Source of the DNA: a virus
DNA: 40,041 bases
Reading direction: 5' to 3' (one strand)
Virus record (IMG/VR): IMGVR_UViG_3300045988_063194
Coordinates: 1-40,041 of that record
The notes below the pieces were generated by a model. It saw nothing but the letters and a program-made list of their open reading frames with translations. It made no database searches and was not told the DNA's origin. Both the position numbers and the translations under genes were made by a program. Shown here piece after piece: positions 22,888 through 34,644 of the stretch (positions are counted from its first letter, which is position 1; every line of letters starts with the position of its first letter).

Positions 22888-24507
22888 TCAAAGAATCATC
22901 AGTCCATGCCCCGAATAGGCGGAAGCCTTAGCCGGTTCGGCATCCACAGCCTGCATGGTCTCCAAGGCGTACAATGCCTGCGATTCGGCGACCAAGCCGG
23001 AAATCTGCAATGCTGATTTCGTCCTGTCCCACACCTCGACCTCGCCGAGCCGTCGGGACACGGCCACACTTACCTGCTGTTCGATGGCGGGCTGCGGAAG
23101 ATGCCGTAGCTTGCCCTCGCGCACGCGGTCGAGGAAGCGGCCGCAGCACGCGCCCAGACGGAAGCCTTCGATGAGATGCACCGTCCACCCTTTTTCGGTG
23201 AGCGGGTCGATGAAGTCCACTGCCGGACAGCCCTTTGACTGCACTGCTATCTCGCAGATGCCCGGCCAGCTCTCACGAAGCAGGTCGAGATAATGCGGAA
23301 CCCACAGCATGCCGTCACGACGGGCTATCAGCTCCACATGCGGCAACCCGTCCGCACGCATTCCGGCAGCGGCCACATACGTGGTCTTACGGTCCGCGCT
23401 CGTGTCCACGGACAGCACGACGCGATTACCGTCAGGAATCATGGAACGCGAGTCGATGCCGCTGGCCCACATTTTCGGATTGATGAAAGGAATGATGTCA
23501 GCCGTGACCCACTGGCACAGGACTTCCGTACGGAACGCGGCCTCGGTCATGCCATCGATATCGGACCGAACCGACATGACGGTCATCGGCCCGTAGCCGA
23601 GCGACGGATTCGCCTGGCGAATAGCGTCGGCGTCATCCACCGGACACTTGTCCGGAGCGCTCCATTCGAAATATCCGAAAGAACCGTCCCGTTCGCCGGA
23701 CAGGAACACGTCGGCCGGATTTCCACCATCGGCGCTCAGACGAGTCCACTCGTCAACAAGCTTGCGGCCCTTGTCCACCTGCTTGCGCAACGCGACACTG
23801 CGATAATCGCCCGCATTGCTGATGCCCCACAACTGGCTCGACCACACAGCCTTCGTGGTCTGGCTGACGGCATTCCAGCCATCATCATTATGCTGTTCAC
23901 GCAACTCGTCGAACACCACGCGCGCGGCCGATTTCGCTCGAATGTTCTTGTCGGCGCGGACGATATATCGGGCCTTCGAGCGGGTGATGATCGCTTCCTC
24001 GCCGTTGGTGTTGACGAATTTTTGCGTCATCGCGGCGAGATCCGGAATCACCAGATCCGCTTCCTCATCAGTCGCCGGAGCAGGATTGCACCACTCCTTG
24101 ACCTGATTGTAAGGGCCCTTGGCATTGTCCAACGTCTGCGCCGCACCGACCACCAGGAATTTGACGGGCGGCACGCGGTCGGGATGCTTGTTGGAGTCCA
24201 CGAACAGCCACCATGCGGCCAAAACGCCCATGAGCGTGGTCTTGCCGTTCTGACGGGCGACAAGCACGATGACCTTGCGGAAGCGATAGCTGCCGTCCTC
24301 AAGCAACTCCAAGGCATGCACCAATAACCATTGTTGCCACGGATACAAATGCACGTGCAGCATGATCTCCGCGAACGCGATCACCGCGAAACCATTCGAG
24401 GTCTCCTTGGTCAACGGCCTGAGCGGTGGCGTGAAGATGCGCGGCAAGGTCACGCCATGCCTCTCATCATCGACGGCACCGAAAACCGTAAGATTCTCAG
24501 CCGCCAT
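22888..24507 (-). CDS. terL: Terminase large subunit
   Basis: 539 aa. Walker A VLVARQNGKTTLMG. C-terminal nuclease region. RBS GAGGAGG. Confidence 0.93.
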   Translation of the reverse strand: MAAENLTVFGAVDDERHGVTLPRIFTPPLRPLTKETSNGFAVIAFAEIMLHVHLYPWQQWLLVHALELLEDGSYRFRKVIVLVARQNGKTTLMGVLAAWWLFVDSNKHPDRVPPVKFLVVGAAQTLDNAKGPYNQVKEWCNPAPATDEEADLVIPDLAAMTQKFVNTNGEEAIITRSKARYIVRADKNIRAKSAARVVFDELREQHNDDGWNAVSQTTKAVWSSQLWGISNAGDYRSVALRKQVDKGRKLVDEWTRLSADGGNPADVFLSGERDGSFGYFEWSAPDKCPVDDADAIRQANPSLGYGPMTVMSVRSDIDGMTEAAFRTEVLCQWVTADIIPFINPKMWASGIDSRSMIPDGNRVVLSVDTSADRKTTYVAAAGMRADGLPHVELIARRDGMLWVPHYLDLLRESWPGICEIAVQSKGCPAVDFIDPLTEKGWTVHLIEGFRLGACCGRFLDRVREGKLRHLPQPAIEQQVSVAVSRRLGEVEVWDRTKSALQISGLVAESQALYALETMQAVDAEPAKASAYSGHGLMIL

Positions 24508-24517
24508 CGCAACCTCC

Positions 24518-24859
24518 TCAGCCGAAACGCTTCATGAAATCATCCATCGCGATAACCTTGTCGCTCTTCGCTTCCTCAGCCCTGACTTCGAGCTTCTGCC
24601 TAGCCGGACGCCCGACCTTCGCTGGAGCGTCCAAAGTCAATCCGAGAGACTGGCAGTATTTCAGGAAAGTCGGCAGAGTCACATTGTCGATCTTCCCGTT
24701 CACGTCAACGAATCCGGTGGCATTCAGGAAGTCAATCCGACCAGCCAGTACGCGGGCGGCCGCGACCACTGCGGAATTCACGGCCTTCAGCCCATCGGCG
24801 TTCTTCAATGAGCGCTCCAAAGCCTCCGCCACATTATGGCTCGGAAATTTCGCCGACAT
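24518..24859 (-). CDS. terS: Terminase small subunit (P27-like)
   Basis: 113 aa, directly upstream of terL and downstream of the HNH gene. RBS GAGGTGAAG. Confidence 0.6.
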   Translation of the reverse strand: MSAKFPSHNVAEALERSLKNADGLKAVNSAVVAAARVLAGRIDFLNATGFVDVNGKIDNVTLPTFLKYCQSLGLTLDAPAKVGRPARQKLEVRAEEAKSDKVIAMDDFMKRFG

Positions 24860-25003
24860 GCTTCACCTCGAATCTGCAATCGCGCGCGCGACCCCCGGTC
24901 AATTTCGGCCATCGGGGAGAGGAAGAGCAACCACGCGGGACGTGGGTCGGTTCGGGGTGGTTTTCAGGATTTCACCGCCCCTATCCCTTTGGTGGTTGAT
25001 GTT

Positions 25004-25312
25004 TTAGTCGCTTGTGTTGATCCATTGTCGGCTTAGTGTGCCGATGGGTGTTGGTGGGTCTTGGTTGCTTCTGAGTCTGTTGCAGCTGGTGTGGCTTGGC
25101 TTGAAGCCTGCCGGGTCGAACTGCAGCTCGGGGTGCTTCGAGACGGGATAGAGGTGATCGAGATTGAATGAATCATCAGTGGTGTTCTTCGTCGCCTCGT
25201 AGTCTATCGGCATTCCGCAGAGCCAGCAGACCGCATGGCTTGCCTTGCACTTTGTGAAGAATGCGGCCTTGTCTTTCTCGAATTGGCGTGTGGTCTTGCG
25301 GACTCTTGGCAT
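25004..25312 (-). CDS. HNH endonuclease (packaging-associated)
   Basis: CWLCGMPI...NLDHLYPVSKHP...PSHTSCN has HNH and zinc-finger motifs. Classical HNH-terS-terL arrangement of cos phages. Confidence 0.85.
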   Translation of the reverse strand: MPRVRKTTRQFEKDKAAFFTKCKASHAVCWLCGMPIDYEATKNTTDDSFNLDHLYPVSKHPELQFDPAGFKPSHTSCNRLRSNQDPPTPIGTLSRQWINTSD

Positions 25313-25329
25313 GTGGTCACCGCCTTGTG

Positions 25330-25489
25330 TGGTGCTTCGGGCTGGAGTCGAACCAGCGCTTGTGTGGGGCGCACTGTCTTTTTATCATCACGGGCATTCG
25401 ATTTAAAGAAGTAGGAAGCCATGGCCGGTAAGGTATCCGTCCTAGGTATCTGTGCTATCCCTCGTGCTCTGCCACTGAGCTACCGAAGC
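25330..25489 (-). ncRNA. Aberrant 160-nt tRNA-like gene: canonical acceptor, D and T arms plus encoded CCA, but about 108 nt between position 26 and the T stem
   Basis: The minus strand reads GCTTCGG-TA-GCTC-AGTGGCA-GAGC-A-[108 nt]-GCTGG-TTCGACT-CCAGC-CCGAAGC-A-CCA. The acceptor stem is a perfect 7 bp. U8, A14, G18G19, A21 and the T-loop are conserved. No 5/7/5 anticodon arm could be found by eye. Confidence 0.65.
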
Positions 25490-25545
25490 TGGATATGAAT
25501 AATGGTCCAACCATTTCTGGCTGAACCATTCTACGAACATACGAC

Positions 25546-25573
25546 AGTATAGCATTTCAACGGTGACAGTCAA
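25546..25573 (-). promoter_or_regulatory. Near-consensus promoter TTGACT-16-TATACT (candidate late promoter)
   Basis: -35 at 25568..25573 and -10 at 25546..25551 on the minus strand. It overlaps the 3' end of the upstream CDS and lies about 50 nt upstream of the tRNA-like gene. A nested hairpin (AATGGT...ACCATT) sits in the leader. Confidence 0.5.
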
Positions 25574-26312
25574 GTAGTGCGGCCAACTCGCCGAGGTTGA
25601 ACTTGTACTGCCGCTTGTGTTCCGTCGGCGTGGCGTGCGACAGTTTGCCGCGTTTGAGCCATTGGCTGATGAGGTTGCGTGATACGGTCAGGCCGTATCG
25701 TTTCAGCTCTTTGGCCGCGCCGCTGGGTGTGCTGATGATTTGCACTTGCCATAGTCTTTCGTCTCGTGCTGCTTTGATTGCTGGCGCAGCCCATTCCATG
25801 TGGCAGTCTTGGCATGTGACCGATTCGGCTTCTGGCGTGCCGGTGAGCAAGCTGTGGCAGTTTGGGCAGGTGCCGAGGATTATGAGCTCGTCTTCTGGTG
25901 TCAGTGCTTGTTCGTTGCGTCTGGTGATGTGTTGCAGGCTGGCGTAGTCGTCGGCTGCTGTGCTCATGTTGAGGATGGCGTGCCGGTTGCTGATGATGGC
26001 GTACCATGCTTTCCGCCAGTCGTATGCGGCGTATGCCGTTCTGATTTTCCCTGCCTGTTCGGCTAGCCAGGCTTCAGAATCTGCGATGAGGTCTTGAGCG
26101 TGGGTGTCGATGGGCAGTGGCGCGTTGCCTTTGTTTGGCGTGTGTTCTGGGGTGCCGATGTGCGCCTGACGGAGCATGATGCTGCGCAGGGCGGGCAGTT
26201 GGACGTGTCCGAGCTGGCGGATGAGCGTCCAGTAGGTTTCACGGCAGTTCTGGCAGAGCATGTTCGCCGATGCCGGTTTCATTGGCTTGTGGCAGTGCTG
26301 GCAGTCGGTCAA
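25557..26312 (-). CDS. Zinc-ribbon / HTH DNA-binding protein (candidate late-gene regulator)
   Basis: TTG start 7 nt after AAGGAGG, overlapping the upstream stop (TTGA). CQHC...CQNC and CPNC...CQDC pairs. C-terminal HTH AAKELKRYGLTVSRNLISQWLKRG. It is the last early gene before the late promoter. Confidence 0.5.
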   Translation of the reverse strand: MTDCQHCHKPMKPASANMLCQNCRETYWTLIRQLGHVQLPALRSIMLRQAHIGTPEHTPNKGNAPLPIDTHAQDLIADSEAWLAEQAGKIRTAYAAYDWRKAWYAIISNRHAILNMSTAADDYASLQHITRRNEQALTPEDELIILGTCPNCHSLLTGTPEAESVTCQDCHMEWAAPAIKAARDERLWQVQIISTPSGAAKELKRYGLTVSRNLISQWLKRGKLSHATPTEHKRQYKFNLGELAALLDCHR

Positions 26313-26452
26313 AGTCTGGCCTCCTTGTCGTACTGGTGGATGATGGCCGCGATTTCGGCTTTCGGGACTTGTGGCACGAGTGGCGCGATCTCGTCGAGTG
26401 CATAGCCGGCCTGATGCCATTTGATGATCATGTTTTCGAGTATTTTCTTCAT
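26309..26452 (-). CDS. 47-aa small HTH-like protein
   Basis: MKKILENMIIKWHQAGYALDEIAPLV... RBS GGAGG. ATGA overlap with the upstream gene. Confidence 0.45.
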   Translation of the reverse strand: MKKILENMIIKWHQAGYALDEIAPLVPQVPKAEIAAIIHQYDKEARL

Positions 26453-26607
26453 TTGGTGGCCTCCAGATATGGATTGTCGCTTGTGTGTGGCGGGAAGTCG
26501 CATTCCTGGTCTTTCCATCCTGCGGCGTAGCCTTCTCGCCATGCTTTGGCCATGCGTCGGTGGTATTCGGCGTCTGTGAGATGGTAGATGAGTTTGGGTT
26601 CTATCAT
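26449..26607 (-). CDS. 52-aa hypothetical protein
   Basis: MIEPKLIYHLTDAEYHRRMAKAWREGY... ATGA overlap with the upstream stop. Confidence 0.45.
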   Translation of the reverse strand: MIEPKLIYHLTDAEYHRRMAKAWREGYAAGWKDQECDFPPHTSDNPYLEATK

Positions 26608-27398
26608 TGTGTGTTCTGCTCCTTGTTGAGTCGTTCTGCGAGTTGGCAGGCTTGTTGGTCTGGCGTGGCGGTTTCCTTGTCGCGTCCGAGCGCTTCGAGC
26701 ACGTGCGAGCATTTCCACGTGTGCACGTGTGGTTTCGAGGGTGGTATGCCGCTCATGCGTGCCCTGCGTTGGCACCAGCCCTTCCATAGGCGGCACCAGT
26801 CGCTGACGGTGCGTGTCTCGCCGTAGTGGCGAGCGGCGAAGGCATTCCACGCGTCCGTGAGGTCGAGATTCGGGTAATCGCGGATTATGGAGGCATTGGC
26901 GTGGGCTTTCTCCCTGACCAGCTCGAAGTCGTTCAGCCCGATTTCTTTGGATGAAGAAGAATATTCTTCTTCATCTTTCTTTTGGGTTCTGGGGTTCTGG
27001 TGTTCTGGTGTTTGTCCCGATTCTGTTTCGATTCTGCCGGCAGTCTGCGCACTTTCTGCCGGCAGACTGCCAGCAGAATAACGGTCATGCTCACGCTTGC
27101 GCTTGGCCATCACCTGCTGACGGCTCCGATTATGCTCGAGGTAATCGTGGATGACATAGCCGCCATCCACGGCCTCGATCAATCCGACCTGCTGCAAAGC
27201 GTCAAGCTCCTGTGTGGTGATGTCGAGCACGAATTCCGCCGTATCATCGTCCACATAACCGTCCGTGAGATTGTCACCGCAGTAGGAAAGCATGACGACG
27301 AACGCACTGACGGCAGAGGGCATGGTACGGCGCAGACGGCGCACCTTACGGTTAAGGTAGAAGCCGTTAGCTAGCTGCACGTAGCCTCGTCTGGCCAT
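26604..27398 (-). CDS. Replisome organiser / replication initiator-like protein
   Basis: The N-terminus (YVQLANGFYLNRKVRRLRRTMPSAVSAFVVMLSYCGDNLTDGYV) resembles a phage replisome-organiser N-domain. A low-complexity linker is encoded by the repeat cluster. The C-terminal domain is Trp/Cys-rich. Confidence 0.55.
   Translation of the reverse strand: MARRGYVQLANGFYLNRKVRRLRRTMPSAVSAFVVMLSYCGDNLTDGYVDDDTAEFVLDITTQELDALQQVGLIEAVDGGYVIHDYLEHNRSRQQVMAKRKREHDRYSAGSLPAESAQTAGRIETESGQTPEHQNPRTQKKDEEEYSSSSKEIGLNDFELVREKAHANASIIRDYPNLDLTDAWNAFAARHYGETRTVSDWCRLWKGWCQRRARMSGIPPSKPHVHTWKCSHVLEALGRDKETATPDQQACQLAERLNKEQNTQ
26950..27065. repeat. Ori-like repeat cluster: 26-bp perfect palindrome plus about 8 TTCTG-type iterons and two CTGCCGGCAG palindromes
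   Basis: gatgaagaagaat|attcttcttcatc at 26950..26975. GGTTCTG at 26985, 26993 and 27001 (period 8). CGATTCTG at 27018 and 27029 (period 11). CTGCCGGCAG at 27034 and 27056 (period 22). Confidence 0.5.
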
Positions 27399-32820: not shown

Positions 32821-33125
32821 GACCGGGCGTCCCGAATGTCGCACATCGGGTCGATGTGGATTCCGGTGAGCATTTCCGGGGTGTCGCCGCCGCCGCGTTC
32901 GAGGTGACGTTTGAGCGCCTTGTCGATGGCCTGGCATGCGACTCGGGCGGCAAACGCGGTGGCCTCGCCCATGTTGCCGGGCAGGGAGACGCCGATCAGT
33001 CCACCCTTGAAGGGGTCCAGCGGCATGTCGAGTTTGCAGATGAGTGCGGGGCCGGATTCCTGGTTGTCGGGGTCGATGTCGACGCAGAGCGCCCATGTTG
33101 CCACCTGTGGTTTGTTTTCGTTCAT
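32817..33125 (-). CDS. 102-aa hypothetical protein
   Basis: MNENKPQVATWALCVDIDPDNQESGPALICKLDMPLDPFKGG... ATGA overlap with the methyltransferase beta ORF stop. Confidence 0.5.
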   Translation of the reverse strand: MNENKPQVATWALCVDIDPDNQESGPALICKLDMPLDPFKGGLIGVSLPGNMGEATAFAARVACQAIDKALKRHLERGGGDTPEMLTGIHIDPMCDIRDARS

Positions 33126-33475
33126 GATGTGGTTTCCTTCCTGAAAAGTTCCTTGTTGTCTTCAACGAGTTGAATTCCTTCGCCGATCCATCTCATGACC
33201 GGAACGGCCATTGAATTCCCCAACGCCTTGTATCGTGGCCCATCCGGCGCGTGCTCCCTGCCGCGCCATTGGATGTCAGTCCACCCATCAGGGAAGCCCT
33301 GGAGCCGTTCGCATTCCAATGGGGTGAGCCTGCGAACCGTTAAACCTTTCATTGGATCCTCCATGTATAAGGACTGGTCGTTGTGCGTGCTGAGCGTGGC
33401 GGAAAGCTCTTCCTGTCCCAGGAATCCCTTACCCCCCCCCGTTCCTCCACCGCGTATCTTGAAGGTAAGGGCCAT
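33122..33475 (-). CDS. C5-cytosine DNA methyltransferase, C-terminal ORF (last TL-type target-recognition motif plus motifs IX-X)
   Basis: ...ELSATLSTHNDQ...LTVRRLTPLECERLQGFPDGW...YKALGNSMAVPVMRWIG. Its ATG overlaps the TAA of the upstream ORF (TAATG). A G9 tract (33432..33440) lies at codons 12-14. Confidence 0.8.
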   Translation of the reverse strand: MALTFKIRGGGTGGGKGFLGQEELSATLSTHNDQSLYMEDPMKGLTVRRLTPLECERLQGFPDGWTDIQWRGREHAPDGPRYKALGNSMAVPVMRWIGEGIQLVEDNKELFRKETTS

Positions 33476-34644
33476 TAGTCTCTCCCATCGGCTGTCGGAT
33501 AGATGAATGGGGCGTCTTTCCCCGCATGTGCCATCAGTGTCGGCGCAAGATTAAAGCACCGTGCCGCGTTCGATTGACTGTCCGCCCGGCACATCACTTC
33601 TCTCTCTCTCTCGATTTCAGCCACCGCATGTCTGTCAGTGGAAGTCAATGTGAAAGCGCCGTTTTCGTCCGGGTCGGCAACACCAAGCTGGTGTCCGCCG
33701 TTCATTTGTCCGCGACCGACGATGTTTCCTGCCACATCGTAGACGGCTGGATTATGGTCAGTGCTCAATGTCGGATTCAACGCTTTCACAAGTGGGACAT
33801 TGTTCCCACCGGTTCCCATGTGAGAGGTGAGAGTGTTTGACAGGTCCGGATGCTCACTGACCTTGAACCTTCCGTCCTGCTGATGGAAGTCCAACATGAC
33901 AGCCGACTGATCCTGCCCACCGTTCCCACGAGCCTGCAATGTCGGGGCGATTCCGTCAGACGAGTACACTCTCCGAGGCTGGTTCTCACCGTGGGTCAAG
34001 TTTCCAATGCCTGAATCTGCGTTTCCAACGCCGCCAGCAGTTCCACCGGCAAGGCTTTTCCTCTTCTCTCGGCTCGACTGATGATCCCAGCACAGGCTTT
34101 CGCGCTCAAAAAGAACCGGGGCGGCACGTCGCCAGTCTCTAGTGTTGACGACAAGGAACACACGCTCGCGTCGTTGGGCCACACCGAAGAACTGAGCGTC
34201 CAACACTCGCCATGCACCCCCCCCATCAGGCCAGAGTTCGGCCACGGCTTCAAGGAGCGACTGGAAAGCCCGTCCGTGTTCAGCCGACAGTACTCCGGGC
34301 ACGTTCTCCCAGACGATCCATTCCGGATCAATTTCTGCGCAAGCTCGGAGATATTCGAGCATGAGCTGGCCGCGTGGATCGTCCAGAGCCTTCCGGAGTC
34401 CGGCGATGCTGAATGCCTGGCAGGGGCTTCCTCCCACAACGACATCTGCCGCATGGTGGTATTGTTTCCAGTCAACTTTGGTCATGTCTCCTAAATCTGG
34501 TACTTCCGGGTAGTGTTGTCTGAGCACGGCTTTGGGGAATGGTTCGATTTCCGCGTATGCTATTGGCTTCCACCCGAGCTGGTGCCATGCGACGGTGGCG
34601 GCTTCGATTCCGCTGAACAGGCTGATGTAGCGTATCGTGCTCAT
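33475..34644 (-). CDS. C5-cytosine DNA methyltransferase, N-terminal ORF (motifs I-VIII plus several TL-type target-recognition motifs)
   Basis: Motif I ISLFSGIEAATVAW. Motif IV GGSPCQAFSIAG. Motif VI ENVPG. Motif VIII QRRERVFLV. Then PTLQARGNGG, NTLTSHMGTGGNN, PTLSTDHNPAV, FTLTSTDRHAV and PTLMAHAGKD. Contains a G8 tract (34217..34224) and (GA)7 (33599..33612). Confidence 0.85.
   Translation of the reverse strand: MSTIRYISLFSGIEAATVAWHQLGWKPIAYAEIEPFPKAVLRQHYPEVPDLGDMTKVDWKQYHHAADVVVGGSPCQAFSIAGLRKALDDPRGQLMLEYLRACAEIDPEWIVWENVPGVLSAEHGRAFQSLLEAVAELWPDGGGAWRVLDAQFFGVAQRRERVFLVVNTRDWRRAAPVLFERESLCWDHQSSREKRKSLAGGTAGGVGNADSGIGNLTHGENQPRRVYSSDGIAPTLQARGNGGQDQSAVMLDFHQQDGRFKVSEHPDLSNTLTSHMGTGGNNVPLVKALNPTLSTDHNPAVYDVAGNIVGRGQMNGGHQLGVADPDENGAFTLTSTDRHAVAEIEREREVMCRADSQSNAARCFNLAPTLMAHAGKDAPFIYPTADGRD

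What the first reader, a model, noticed from the sequence alone, without database searches (positions are those of the whole stretch)
25330..25573. tRNA-like gene with perfect acceptor, D and T arms and encoded CCA but a 108-nt insert in place of the anticodon arm, heading the late operon
**What the sequence shows.**
- The minus strand from 25489 to 25330 has a perfect 7-bp acceptor stem (GCTTCGG/CCGAAGC).
- It also has U8, D arm GCTC-AGTGGCA-GAGC (A14, G18G19, A21), T arm GCTGG-TTCGACT-CCAGC, discriminator A and a genomic CCA.
- Between position 26 and the T stem there are about 108 nt, where a normal tRNA has about 22.
- I could not find any 5-bp/7-nt/5-bp anticodon arm. CGAGG has no CCTCG-type partner.
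- The insert is visibly AT-richer than the surrounding DNA. It contains the palindrome GCCATGGC and direct GATACCT repeats.
- It is too short for the group I introns (over 200 nt) known in bacterial tRNA anticodon loops.

**Context.** The element lies about 50 nt downstream of a near-consensus promoter (TTGACT-16-TATACT). Its CCA end is 17 nt upstream of the HNH/terS/terL genes. It would therefore be the first structured element of the late transcript.

**Possible interpretations.**
- A tRNA with a novel small intervening sequence.
- An anticodon-less tRNA mimic, acting as a decoy for anticodon nucleases or tRNA-targeting defences, or as an RNase P/Z processing handle for the late mRNA.
- A decaying tRNA gene.
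Basis: partly seen in the sequence, partly recalled or inferred. Interest (0 to 1): 0.72.

Follow-up and report, generated by a model that had tools for sequence, protein, structure and literature searches.

The report
tRNA-shaped RNA heading prophage late genes
A family of Bifidobacterium prophages from the human gut carries, just before its DNA-packaging genes, a conserved 160-base RNA gene with the frame of a tRNA but a branched ~95-base domain where the anticodon arm should be; it matched no Rfam family and its function is unknown.

Summary
On the minus strand, 25489→25330 has a 7-bp acceptor stem, canonical D and T arms, discriminator A and CCA, with 106 nt in place of the anticodon arm.

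It is not a decoding tRNA, an intron-containing tRNA, a tmRNA or a Y RNA. ARAGORN and Rfam find nothing. ARAGORN's intron mode gives contradictory anticodons in near-identical copies.

It is a conserved structured RNA.
- More than 150 contigs from human-gut Bifidobacterium prophages carry it, as two diverged subtypes (A and B).
- It evolves more slowly than synonymous sites: identity 0.90 against 0.77.
- 92% of proposed pairs form, against 29–39% in slid controls.
- Compensatory changes occur in the T stem and in a long arm that replaces the anticodon stem.

It always follows an invariant near-consensus promoter and a conserved terminator-like hairpin, and it precedes HNH–terS–terL.

The slot is exchangeable. 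Sister phages carry an unrelated structured RNA, deletion remnants or a plain terminator. No uninterrupted tRNA was found in this slot.

Best reading: a tRNA-derived accessory RNA excised from the late leader by tRNA-processing enzymes, with the insert as the working part. Its function was not determined.

The parts
25546..25573 (-). Late promoter: -35 TTGACT (25573-25568), 16-nt spacer with an extended -10 TG, -10 TATACT (25551-25546). It overlaps the last codons of the upstream gene.
   Evidence: the only sigma-70-like site in 24400-27000, 10 of 12 matches, TG present.: -35 invariant and -10 near-invariant (one variant) in 37 aligned relatives; the -35 motif is present in all 45 printed of the 80 loci found through the upstream protein. 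Transcription from it is inferred.
25501..25530 (-). Leader hairpin AAUGGUUCAGCC-AGAAAU-GGUUGGACCAUU, followed by a U-rich tail (UAUUCAUAU; UUUUUCAUAU in many relatives). It is terminator-like or a regulator target.
   Evidence: dG -19.2 kcal/mol, z = -4.5; one compensatory pair (UA/CG) and several G-U changes; present upstream of every cassette type printed. It does not reach the terminator scan's U-tract criterion.
25330..25489 (-). The tRNA-shaped RNA gene, 160 nt (family subtype A).
25483..25489 (-). Acceptor stem, 5' strand GCUUCGG. The inferred RNase P site is 5' of G at 25489.
   Evidence: pairs 1-6 are kept in 84-86 of 86 distinct sequences. Pair 7 is G-C in subtype A and A.A in subtype B.
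25466..25480 (-). D arm GCUC-AGUGGCA-GAGC (A14, G18, G19, A21).
   Evidence: 99% paired; loop variants AGUGGCA, AGCGGCA and AGCGGUUA all keep GG.
25452..25461 (-). Long arm, 5' strand: GGGAU, bulged A, GCAC. It takes the place of the anticodon stem.
   Evidence: five of nine pairs show changes on both sides (GC/AU 28 cells, AU/GC 13 cells, and others). In the window copy A32.C121 is a mismatch and U33.G120 a wobble.
25443..25451 (-). Junction strand J1, AGAUACCUA. It is unpaired in the model. AUACC is shared by most copies of subtypes A and B.
   Evidence: C44 and C45 invariant, T42 and A43 nearly so. Conserved unpaired bases suggest a recognition surface; this is inference.
25423..25442 (-). 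Hairpin H1: GG-A-CGG, loop AUACCUUA, CCG-G-CC.
   Evidence: 93% paired. The stem G-C pairs almost never vary. The loop varies in sequence and length (AUACCAAA, AACAGA, ACCCCAAA).
25390..25422 (-). Hairpin H2: base AUGG/CCGU, inner CUUC/GAA(U)G, variable loop CUACUUCUUUAAAUC.
   Evidence: base pairs kept (U.G becomes U-A in 29 sequences). The inner part and loop are replaced in subtype B. The loop is deleted in L305.
25375..25389 (-). Junction strand J3, GAUGAUAAAAAGACA: GAU, a variable run, then AGA(C/U)A.
   Evidence: A pseudoknot with the H2 loop (UUCUUU:AAAGA) was tested and is not supported (77% paired, broken in subtype B).
25366..25374 (-). Long arm, 3' strand: GUGC then GCCCC.
   Evidence: as for the 5' strand.
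25358..25365 (-). Variable-region equivalent, ACACAAGC (6-9 nt in relatives). Only the last C is invariant, at the position of C48, the usual partner of base 15.
   Evidence: invariant C before the T stem.
25341..25357 (-). T arm GCUGG-UUCGACU-CCAGC.
   Evidence: 100% paired in 86 distinct sequences. Two pairs show compensatory changes, with three pair types at one of them (UA 42, CG 28, GC 16).
25330..25340 (-). Acceptor stem 3' strand CCGAAGC, discriminator A, CCA.
   Evidence: of 96 copies found without reference to the 3' tail, 85 end in ACCA, 6 in ACUU, 4 in GCUA and 1 in ACAA.
25004..25326 (-). Shine-Dalgarno AAGGCGGUGA (25326-25317) and the HNH endonuclease gene (25312-25004), the first late gene. 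terS (24859-24518) and the likely terL (24507-22888) follow.
Evidence: phrog_338, HNH.
25557..26309 (-). Upstream gene: zinc-ribbon protein with a C-terminal helix-turn-helix-like tail (phrog_908, function unknown). It is a candidate late-gene regulator by position only. The real start is probably the Met giving 251 aa.
   Evidence: Weak homologues sit in the same position in Propionibacterium phage B3 and a B. imperatoris prophage.

Best explanation
The element is a functional RNA gene derived from a tRNA. It is not a decoding tRNA.

**Proposed mechanism.**
1. It is transcribed as the first large structure of the late transcript, from the near-consensus promoter at 25573-25546, after a conserved leader hairpin.
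2. Its intact acceptor/T-arm minihelix, D arm and 3' ACCA make it a substrate for the host's tRNA-maturation enzymes. RNase P would cut 5' of G at 25489, and 3' trimming would stop at or near the encoded CCA.
3. These cuts would release a stable RNA of about 160 nt and separate the leader from the HNH-terS-terL message.
4. In that RNA the tRNA body acts as a processing and stability scaffold.
5. The ~95-nt domain that replaces the anticodon arm is the working part. It is a long arm ending in a three-way junction, with two hairpins and conserved unpaired strands, and it binds a partner not yet known.

**Likely role.** The cassette is exchangeable and dispensable among sister phages, so it is most likely accessory cargo for host interaction or counter-defence, rather than an essential regulator.

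**Shown:** the tRNA frame, conservation, covariation, fixed context and exchangeability.
**Inferred:** transcription, processing, stability and the trans-acting role.
For: **tRNA frame.**
- Read directly from the sequence.
- The family's covariance model cross-detects ordinary tRNAs at 20-54 bits.

**Family size.**
- 54 and 114 IMG/VR loci.
- Bifidobacterium ruminantium DSM 6489.

**Selection.** Element identity is 0.898, against 0.767 at HNH third codon positions and 0.93-0.94 at positions 1 and 2.

**Structure.**
- 92.3% of cells are paired, against 29-39% when partners are slid.
- 109 cells show double-sided changes, against 33 in shuffles.
- The compensatory changes lie in the T stem and the long arm.
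- Indels fall in loops.

**Subtypes.** A and B are about 70% identical yet keep the same architecture.

**Fixed context.** 93 of 96 copies found with a frame-only pattern have the promoter and hairpin directly upstream.

**Accessory nature.** The slot holds subtype A, subtype B, an unrelated structured RNA (type E, 7 compensatory pairs), deletion remnants (types C and D) or a terminator (L320). These combine freely with three HNH types.

**Precedent.** phiC31 has a true tRNA-Thr directly before gp29, gp30 (HNH), terS and terL.
Against: - No expression or end-mapping data were available. Processing by RNase P is inferred only from the shape.
- Subtype B has a non-canonical T loop (UCCGACU) and an A.A mismatch at acceptor pair 7, so strict tRNA mimicry is not maintained across the family.
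- 11 of 96 copies lack an encoded CCA.
- No partner, target or associated protein gene was identified. No significant antisense target exists in the window.
- In more distant relatives the same slot holds an intrinsic terminator, which hints at a cis-regulatory role for the slot.
- The family is narrow, so most inner stems never vary and are uninformative.
Confidence: 0.55

Rival explanations
1. A purely cis-acting leader element. The tRNA shape serves only as a punctuation site: RNase P and 3' trimming cut the leader from the late mRNA. Alternatively it is a structural barrier that replaces the terminator of an antitermination-controlled late operon. The released RNA would have no function of its own.
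For: - The element is always in the late leader, never elsewhere.
- Relatives lacking it have a promoter, a small hairpin and an intrinsic terminator in the same slot (for L320).
- A conserved zinc-ribbon/HTH gene sits where lambdoid Q genes sit.
- -10-like hexamers (TAGAAT or TAAAAT) follow the promoter in all variants.
Against: - A plain tRNA or a hairpin would suffice for punctuation, yet the ~95-nt insert, including unpaired strands, is under purifying selection.
- There is no U-tract terminator at the element's 3' end.
- Types C and D show that phages persist with the element truncated or almost entirely deleted.
- An unrelated structured RNA (type E) can replace it.
Confidence: 0.2
2. 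A genuine tRNA gene interrupted by a new kind of small (~75-85 nt) intron in the anticodon loop. The intron would be spliced out to give a decoding tRNA.
For: - ARAGORN in intron mode reports tRNA-Ala(UGC) with an 83-nt intron for the window copy.
- In that model the 5' exon ends in U and the intron ends in G.
- Another unrelated phage contig (L266) has a tRNA frame with an insert of similar size.
Against: - The calls are inconsistent among near-identical copies (Ala UGC, Thr AGU, Ala AGC, Ala GGC) and absent for subtype B.
- The putative anticodon stem has mismatches.
- U3-A70 in the acceptor stem is incompatible with alanine identity (G3.U70 is established knowledge).
- The size is far below the group I minimum, and no Rfam intron or ribozyme matches.
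- Covariation supports the long arm that continues through the supposed splice sites.
Confidence: 0.04
3. A decaying tRNA pseudogene or a neutral remnant of an insertion into a tRNA gene, conserved only because the phages are recent relatives.
For: - Truncated and deleted versions exist (types C and D, and L362).
- The folding energy of the whole 163 nt is not exceptional (z = -0.77).
- Subtype B has lost some canonical tRNA features.
Against: - The element is much more conserved than synonymous sites in the adjacent gene (0.90 against 0.77).
- Compensatory changes maintain the T stem and long arm across subtypes.
- Variation is concentrated in loops.
- No intact parental tRNA was found in the slot.
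Confidence: 0.05
4. A miniature tmRNA-like or otherwise aminoacylated RNA that enters the ribosome.
For: It has an acceptor stem, a T arm and a CCA end, with a large domain in place of the anticodon arm, as in tmRNA.
Against: - No G3.U70.
- No conserved tag reading frame. Loop indels of 1, 4 and 5 nt break every frame, and the ATG-initiated ORF stops after 6 codons in relatives.
- ARAGORN's tmRNA mode and Rfam find nothing.
- It has a full D stem, unlike tmRNA.
Confidence: 0.03

Closest known systems
Phage-encoded tRNA at the head of the late genes (phiC31 tRNA-Thr, AJ006589 40702-40777)
   Same: Both are actinobacterial temperate phages with a tRNA-shaped gene immediately upstream of the first late genes. 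In phiC31 these are gp29, gp30 (HNH), cos, terS and terL.
   Different: The phiC31 gene is an ordinary 76-nt tRNA with a CGU anticodon. The element here has no anticodon arm and cannot decode. There is no sequence relationship beyond the generic tRNA frame.
tmRNA (SsrA)
   Same: A tRNA-like acceptor/T-arm module with a CCA end, carrying a large structured domain where the anticodon arm would be.
   Different: tmRNA has G3.U70, a tag reading frame, pseudoknots and no D stem, and it works with SmpB. None of these is present here, and this RNA is only 160 nt.
Bacterial Y RNAs of the YrlA type (PMC4201824)
   Same: A non-coding RNA containing a tRNA-like module (D arm, T arm, acceptor stem). The family occurs in bacteria and phages, including actinobacteria, and M. 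smegmatis YrlA is cut by RNase P.
   Different: The YrlA Rfam model does not match. The GNCGAAN0-1G motif is not conserved here. No Ro60/Rsr gene was seen among the 29 window proteins scanned. Here the RNA ends lie at the acceptor stem, with an encoded CCA in most copies.
Intron-containing tRNA genes (bacterial group I introns in anticodon loops; archaeal bulge-helix-bulge introns)
   Same: A tRNA frame interrupted between the D arm and the T arm.
   Different: The insert is too short for group I and matches no intron model. No consistent splice sites or anticodon exist. The insert replaces the anticodon stem-loop rather than interrupting it.
C4 antisense RNA of phages P1/P7 (RNase P-processed RNA from an operon leader; my own knowledge, not checked here)
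   Same: A phage regulatory RNA cut out of the leader of the operon it precedes, by RNase P acting on a tRNA-like feature.
   Different: C4 is about 77 nt, is not a cloverleaf, and pairs with sites in its own transcript. No such complementarity was found here, and the downstream gene varies.
Engineered 'tRNA scaffold' RNAs (my own knowledge, not checked here)
   Same: The same design: a foreign structured RNA replaces the anticodon arm, so that the cell's tRNA enzymes process and stabilise it.
   Different: Those are man-made. This would be a natural counterpart, and that is unproven.

Membership tests
Decoding tRNA | 7-bp acceptor stem, D arm with G18 G19, T arm with the T-loop consensus, discriminator and CCA | tested here: met
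   Read directly. The family model cross-hits real tRNAs at 20-54 bits.
Decoding tRNA | Anticodon arm: 5-bp stem and 7-nt loop with U33 and a conserved anticodon | tested here: not met
   None can be drawn. ARAGORN's standard mode finds nothing in the window or in 41 family members. Rfam's tRNA model does not match even at E up to 10.
tRNA with group I (or other known) intron | Intron matching a known self-splicing or ribozyme family, at least ~200 nt for group I | tested here: not met
   The insert is 75-106 nt. Rfam gives no hit at gathering or E-value thresholds.
tRNA with group I (or other known) intron | The same exon junction and anticodon in all homologues | tested here: not met
   ARAGORN -i gives four different anticodons and several junctions, and nothing for subtype B.
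tmRNA | G3.U70 alanine identity pair | tested here: not met
   U3-A70 in 85 of 86 distinct sequences and U.G in one.
tmRNA | Conserved tag reading frame with a stop codon; detection by ARAGORN or Rfam | tested here: not met
   Frame-breaking indels. ARAGORN -m finds nothing. Rfam finds nothing.
YrlA / bacterial Y RNA | Match to the Rfam YrlA model; conserved GNCGAAN0-1G motif | tested here: not met
   No Rfam hit. The motif is absent or not conserved (window AUCGAAUG; relatives UUUGAAUG). Motif definition from PMC4201824.
YrlA / bacterial Y RNA | Encoded next to a Ro60/Rsr (TROVE) gene | tested here: inconclusive
   None among the 29 window proteins scanned, but not every ORF was scanned.
Intrinsic terminator (as in the same slot of relatives) | G+C-rich hairpin followed by a U run at the end of the element | tested here: not met
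   No minus-strand terminator-like site in 25300-25560. The 3' flank is ACCACACAAGG.
Phage attachment site overlapping a tRNA | Adjacent integrase; a tRNA 3' part duplicated at the prophage ends | tested here: not met
   The integrase is at 56-1225, 24 kb away. The element lies between the early and late modules in all loci.
RNase P substrate (tRNA-like processing signal) | Cleavage 5' of G1 by RNase P; a mature 3' CCA end | not testable with these tools
   Only the substrate shape is shown: a 12-bp acceptor/T minihelix, a T loop and RCCA.

The most novel reading that the evidence does not exclude
The late-operon leader of these Bifidobacterium prophages is a slot for exchangeable RNA cargo. 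The element would be a natural 'tRNA scaffold'. The phage borrows the host's tRNA-maturation machinery to make large amounts of a stable ~160-nt RNA late in infection. Its ~95-nt three-way-junction domain, or its anticodon-less tRNA body, would sequester or misdirect a host factor such as a tRNA-directed defence enzyme. The unrelated type E RNA would be an alternative cargo for other hosts.
Probability: 0.3. Interest if true: 0.85.

Novelty: new variant of a known kind. Interest (0 to 1): 0.66.

Why it matters
Bifidobacteria are key members of the human gut flora, and their prophages are poorly understood.

This element would be a widespread RNA gene that matches no Rfam family, and I found no description of it in the papers searched. 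It is carried by many of these prophages and placed where it should be strongly expressed during lytic growth.

It would add a third natural design to the known tRNA-like RNAs (tmRNA and Y RNAs): a complete tRNA body with the anticodon arm swapped for an effector domain. That is the design RNA engineers invented as the 'tRNA scaffold'.

Sister phages put an unrelated structured RNA, remnants or a terminator in the same slot. This gives a ready-made natural experiment for testing what such leader RNAs do, and whether phages use RNA cargo in host-phage conflicts.

Tried and rejected
- **Standard tRNA/tmRNA detection and Rfam.** At gathering and E-value thresholds, on the window and on loci of the other cassette types, nothing was found except a chance T-arm match.
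- **Intron reading.** ARAGORN -i makes a call, but the calls are inconsistent across the family.
- **Kink-turn or box C/D reading of CGUGAUGA.** Rejected. CCGU is the 3' strand of hairpin H2, with U.G changing to U-A in relatives, and the GAUGA part is variable.
- **Pseudoknot between the H2 loop UUCUUU and J3 AAAGA/AGAGA.** Not supported: 77% paired, broken in subtype B, and the loop is deleted in L305.
- **Small ORF starting at the ATG in GCCATGGC.** Not conserved: there are frame-breaking indels and an early stop in relatives.
- **Antisense target within the phage.** Only one 11-mer match was found, at chance level.
- **Attachment-site reading.** The integrase is 24 kb away.
- **Host tRNA of origin.** No representative Bifidobacterium genome has a tRNA with this 5' end. 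The closest real tRNAs with the same 5' half are mostly tRNA-Phe from other phyla and phages.
- **Uninterrupted tRNA in the same slot of relatives.** None found, only deletion remnants.
- **Distant homologues through the upstream protein and HNH.** Only close relatives were found, plus two loci (B. imperatoris and Propionibacterium phage B3) with terminators in the slot, and one (B. miconisargentati) with a different, coding neighbourhood.
- **Literature.** Searches for bifidobacterial prophage tRNA-like elements found nothing relevant. The phiC31 genome paper is not held.
Full report
**1. The observation**

Read on the minus strand, 25489→25330 is a 160-nt tRNA frame.
- Acceptor stem GCUUCGG/CCGAAGC, then U8 and A9.
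- D arm GCUC-AGUGGCA-GAGC.
- T arm GCUGG-UUCGACU-CCAGC.
- Discriminator A and CCA.

Between the D arm and the T stem lie 106 nt with G+C 0.50. The frame has G+C 0.63 and the window 0.58. The GCCATGGC palindrome and the two GATACCT copies are present.

The promoter TTGACT-16-TATACT, with an extended -10 TG, lies at 25573-25546. It is the only promoter-like site in 2.6 kb. The CCA end is 17 nt from the ATG of an HNH gene. That gene is followed by terS and a 539-aa ORF taken to be terL from its position (no Pfam hit for the latter). So the description holds.

ARAGORN finds no tRNA or tmRNA in the window. Rfam finds nothing at gathering thresholds. At E ≤ 10 it gives only a chance match to the T arm.

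**2. A conserved family in Bifidobacterium prophages**

- A 27-mer from the 5' part is absent from the representative genomes but occurs in 54 IMG/VR contigs.
- An inner motif finds 114 viral contigs. It also finds a prophage in Bifidobacterium ruminantium DSM 6489 and a MAG labelled Collinsella.
It returned 67 copies of subtype A and 25 of a diverged subtype B, mostly from human-gut assemblies.
- The upstream protein has 284 homologues, one of them named from B. catenulatum.
- The only GenBank phage record carrying the element is an unannotated faecal contig, MT836208.
- Papers on bifidobacterial prophages do not mention it.

**3. It is under selection and it is structured**

In 77 subtype-A loci that share the same HNH gene, mean pairwise identity differs by site class:

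| Region | Mean pairwise identity |
|---|---|
| Element | 0.898 |
| HNH codon position 3 | 0.767 |
| HNH codon positions 1 and 2 | 0.93-0.94 |

Differences and indels fall in loops.

Subtypes A and B are about 70% identical and align over their whole length. I proposed a structure with an acceptor stem, D stem, long arm, two inner hairpins and T stem.
- On that alignment, 91.9% of cells pair, against 30-42% when partners are slid.
- On 86 distinct sequences aligned to a covariance model, 92.3% pair, against 29-39% in slid controls.
- There, 109 cells show changes on both sides, against 33 in shuffles.
- The T stem is paired in every sequence, with three pair types at one position.
- Five of the nine pairs of the long arm show compensatory changes: GGGAU/AUCCC becomes GGAAU/AUUCC, and GCAC/GUGC becomes GCGC/(A)CGC. 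A further subtype has AGGAC/GUCCU.

The alignment fitted to the model leans towards the structure, and the family is narrow, so most inner-stem pairs never vary and say nothing. The model also detects ordinary tRNAs in unrelated contigs at 20-54 bits through the shared frame. It finds exactly one copy in the window, at 169 bits.

**4. What it is not**

*Not a decoding tRNA.* No anticodon arm can be drawn.

*Not an intron-containing tRNA.*
- ARAGORN's intron mode does return 'tRNA-Ala(UGC) with an 83-nt intron' for the window.
- Across 41 representatives the same mode gives Ala(UGC), Thr(AGU), Ala(AGC) or Ala(GGC) with shifting junctions. It gives nothing for subtype B.
- The acceptor stem has U3-A70, not the G3.U70 needed for alanine.
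- The covarying long arm runs straight through the supposed splice sites.

*Not a tmRNA.* There is no G3.U70, no conserved tag frame and no detection by ARAGORN or Rfam.

*Not a YrlA-type Y RNA.* There is no Rfam match, the GNCGAAN0-1G motif is not conserved, and the ends lie at the acceptor stem (for the definition).

*Not an attachment site.* The integrase is 24 kb away.

*Not coding.* Frame-breaking indels rule it out.

*No intact parent in the slot.* No uninterrupted tRNA occupies this site in any relative found. The only short versions are deletion remnants that ARAGORN does not accept.

The 5' 30 nt are identical or nearly so to several phage and bacterial tRNA-Phe genes. That suggests, but does not prove, a tRNA-Phe-like ancestor.

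**5. Context: a late-leader slot with exchangeable contents**

I collected 80 loci through the upstream protein alone, at 80-92% identity. The -35 motif is present in all 45 loci whose sequence was printed. A 13-bp leader hairpin is present in 44 of them; the remaining locus is cut off at its end. The hairpin has dG -19 and z -4.5, and it is followed by a U-rich tail.

What follows the hairpin differs from phage to phage:

| Slot content | Loci | Notes |
|---|---|---|
| Subtype A | about 40 | the element in this window |
| Subtype B | 12 | diverged homologue |
| Type C | 3 | ~72-nt deletion form |
| Type D | 3 | almost complete deletion, fusing the 5' 32 nt to the ribosome-binding site |
| Type E | 19 | unrelated RNA closed by an 11-bp stem; 7 compensatory pairs in five sequences; no Rfam match |
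| Type F (L320) | 1 | hairpin plus U run |

Three non-orthologous HNH genes follow these cassettes in shuffled combinations. The joint lies at or within a few nucleotides after the acceptor 3' strand.

In more distant relatives, Propionibacterium phage B3 and a B. imperatoris prophage, the same slot holds a promoter, a small hairpin and a classic intrinsic terminator. In these relatives the slot likewise lies between a zinc-ribbon/HTH gene and HNH.

In phiC31 a true tRNA-Thr sits directly before gp29, gp30 (HNH), terS and terL.

**6. How it most likely works**

Established knowledge of tRNA maturation says that a 12-bp acceptor/T minihelix with a T loop and a 3' RCCA is what bacterial RNase P recognises. 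The element keeps exactly these parts. Both subtypes keep the acceptor stem, and 85 of 96 copies keep ACCA.

I therefore infer the following steps.
1. The late transcript is cut 5' of G25489.
2. It is trimmed at the 3' side.
3. This releases a stable ~160-nt RNA and detaches the leader from the packaging-gene message.

The insert, including unpaired strands such as AGAUACC, is conserved beyond what a mere processing signal needs. This points to a specific partner. Truncated and deleted forms exist, and an unrelated RNA can take the element's place. This points to accessory rather than essential function.

My best reading, at confidence about 0.55, is a tRNA-scaffolded accessory RNA. A role in host interaction or counter-defence is the most attractive specific version, but it is conjecture at about 0.3.

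The main rival, at about 0.2, is a purely cis-acting punctuation or barrier element of an antitermination-controlled late operon. The terminators in relatives support it, as do the position of the upstream gene and the -10-like hexamers after the promoter.

**7. Limits**

- No expression data were available.
- The family is shallow.
- Processing, stability and any trans action are all inferred.
- The whole-element folding energy is not exceptional on its own (z = -0.77). The case for structure rests on comparative evidence.

**8. Verdict**

This is a real structured RNA family derived from a tRNA, with no match in Rfam 15 and no mention in the papers searched. It is a new variant among tRNA-like RNAs, sits in an interesting exchangeable position, and has unknown function.

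Noticed in passing
L341:1985-2190 (also L298, L310, L314, L317, L318, L333, L335, L338, L342, L343, L346-L348, L350, L353, L359, L365, L370): Type E. In 19 of 80 sister phages the same slot holds an unrelated RNA closed by an 11-bp stem (UGUCCGGCAUG/CAUGCCGGACA). It has 46 predicted pairs, 7 with compensatory changes in only five sequences, and no Rfam match. It looks like a second undescribed structured RNA.
   Followed up: partly
window 25501-25545 (minus strand): The conserved leader has two features. A -10-like hexamer (TAGAAT here, TAAAAT in others) lies 13 nt after the real -10. A 13-bp hairpin with a U-rich tail follows (dG -19.2, z -4.5, one compensatory pair). Together with the upstream zinc-ribbon/HTH gene this resembles a lambdoid late-promoter, pause and terminator arrangement.
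   Followed up: partly
L307, L308, L339, L380, L391 (type C); L313, L328, L331 (type D); L362; L305: Natural deletion variants of the element exist: a ~72-nt form joined at the microhomology CGGTC, near-total deletions that fuse the 5' 32 nt to the ribosome-binding site, a 3'-truncated copy, and a copy lacking only the H2 loop. They would serve as ready-made mutants.
   Followed up: partly
downstream of the element in L030, L040, L058, L076 (HNH type 2) and L038, L063, L102, L105, L112 (HNH type 3): Three non-orthologous HNH endonuclease genes follow the same leader cassette. The recombination joint lies at or within about 6 nt after the 3' end of the acceptor stem.
   Followed up: partly
L266:13101-13261: An unrelated low-G+C viral contig carries another tRNA frame (7-bp acceptor stem, D and T arms) with an insert of about 85 nt between them. 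ARAGORN accepts it only in intron mode. Frames with inserts of this size may recur in phages.
   Followed up: partly
L144:1836-1985 and L140:2260-2398: In a B. imperatoris prophage and in Propionibacterium phage B3, the interval between the homologous zinc-ribbon/HTH gene and HNH holds a promoter, a small hairpin and a strong intrinsic terminator (CCCCGG...CCGGGGUUUU).
   Followed up: yes
window 25557-26420 (minus strand): The mechanical ORF is 287 aa, but nearly all of the 120 listed homologues are 240-254 aa and align from the Met at about residue 37. The protein has two CxxC zinc ribbons and a C-terminal W-KRG helix-turn-helix-like tail. It falls in phrog_908 (function unknown), and one source names it 'PhnA protein'.
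   Followed up: partly
window 33122-34644 (minus strand): Two adjacent ORFs, of 389 and 117 aa, both match cytosine-5 DNA methyltransferase families. They may be one gene split by a frameshift or a genuine two-part enzyme.
   Followed up: no
L135/L143 and L142 (MAGs labelled Collinsella): Contigs carrying this Bifidobacterium-type prophage module, or its HNH gene, are binned as Collinsella. This is either mis-binning or a wider host range within Actinomycetota.
   Followed up: no
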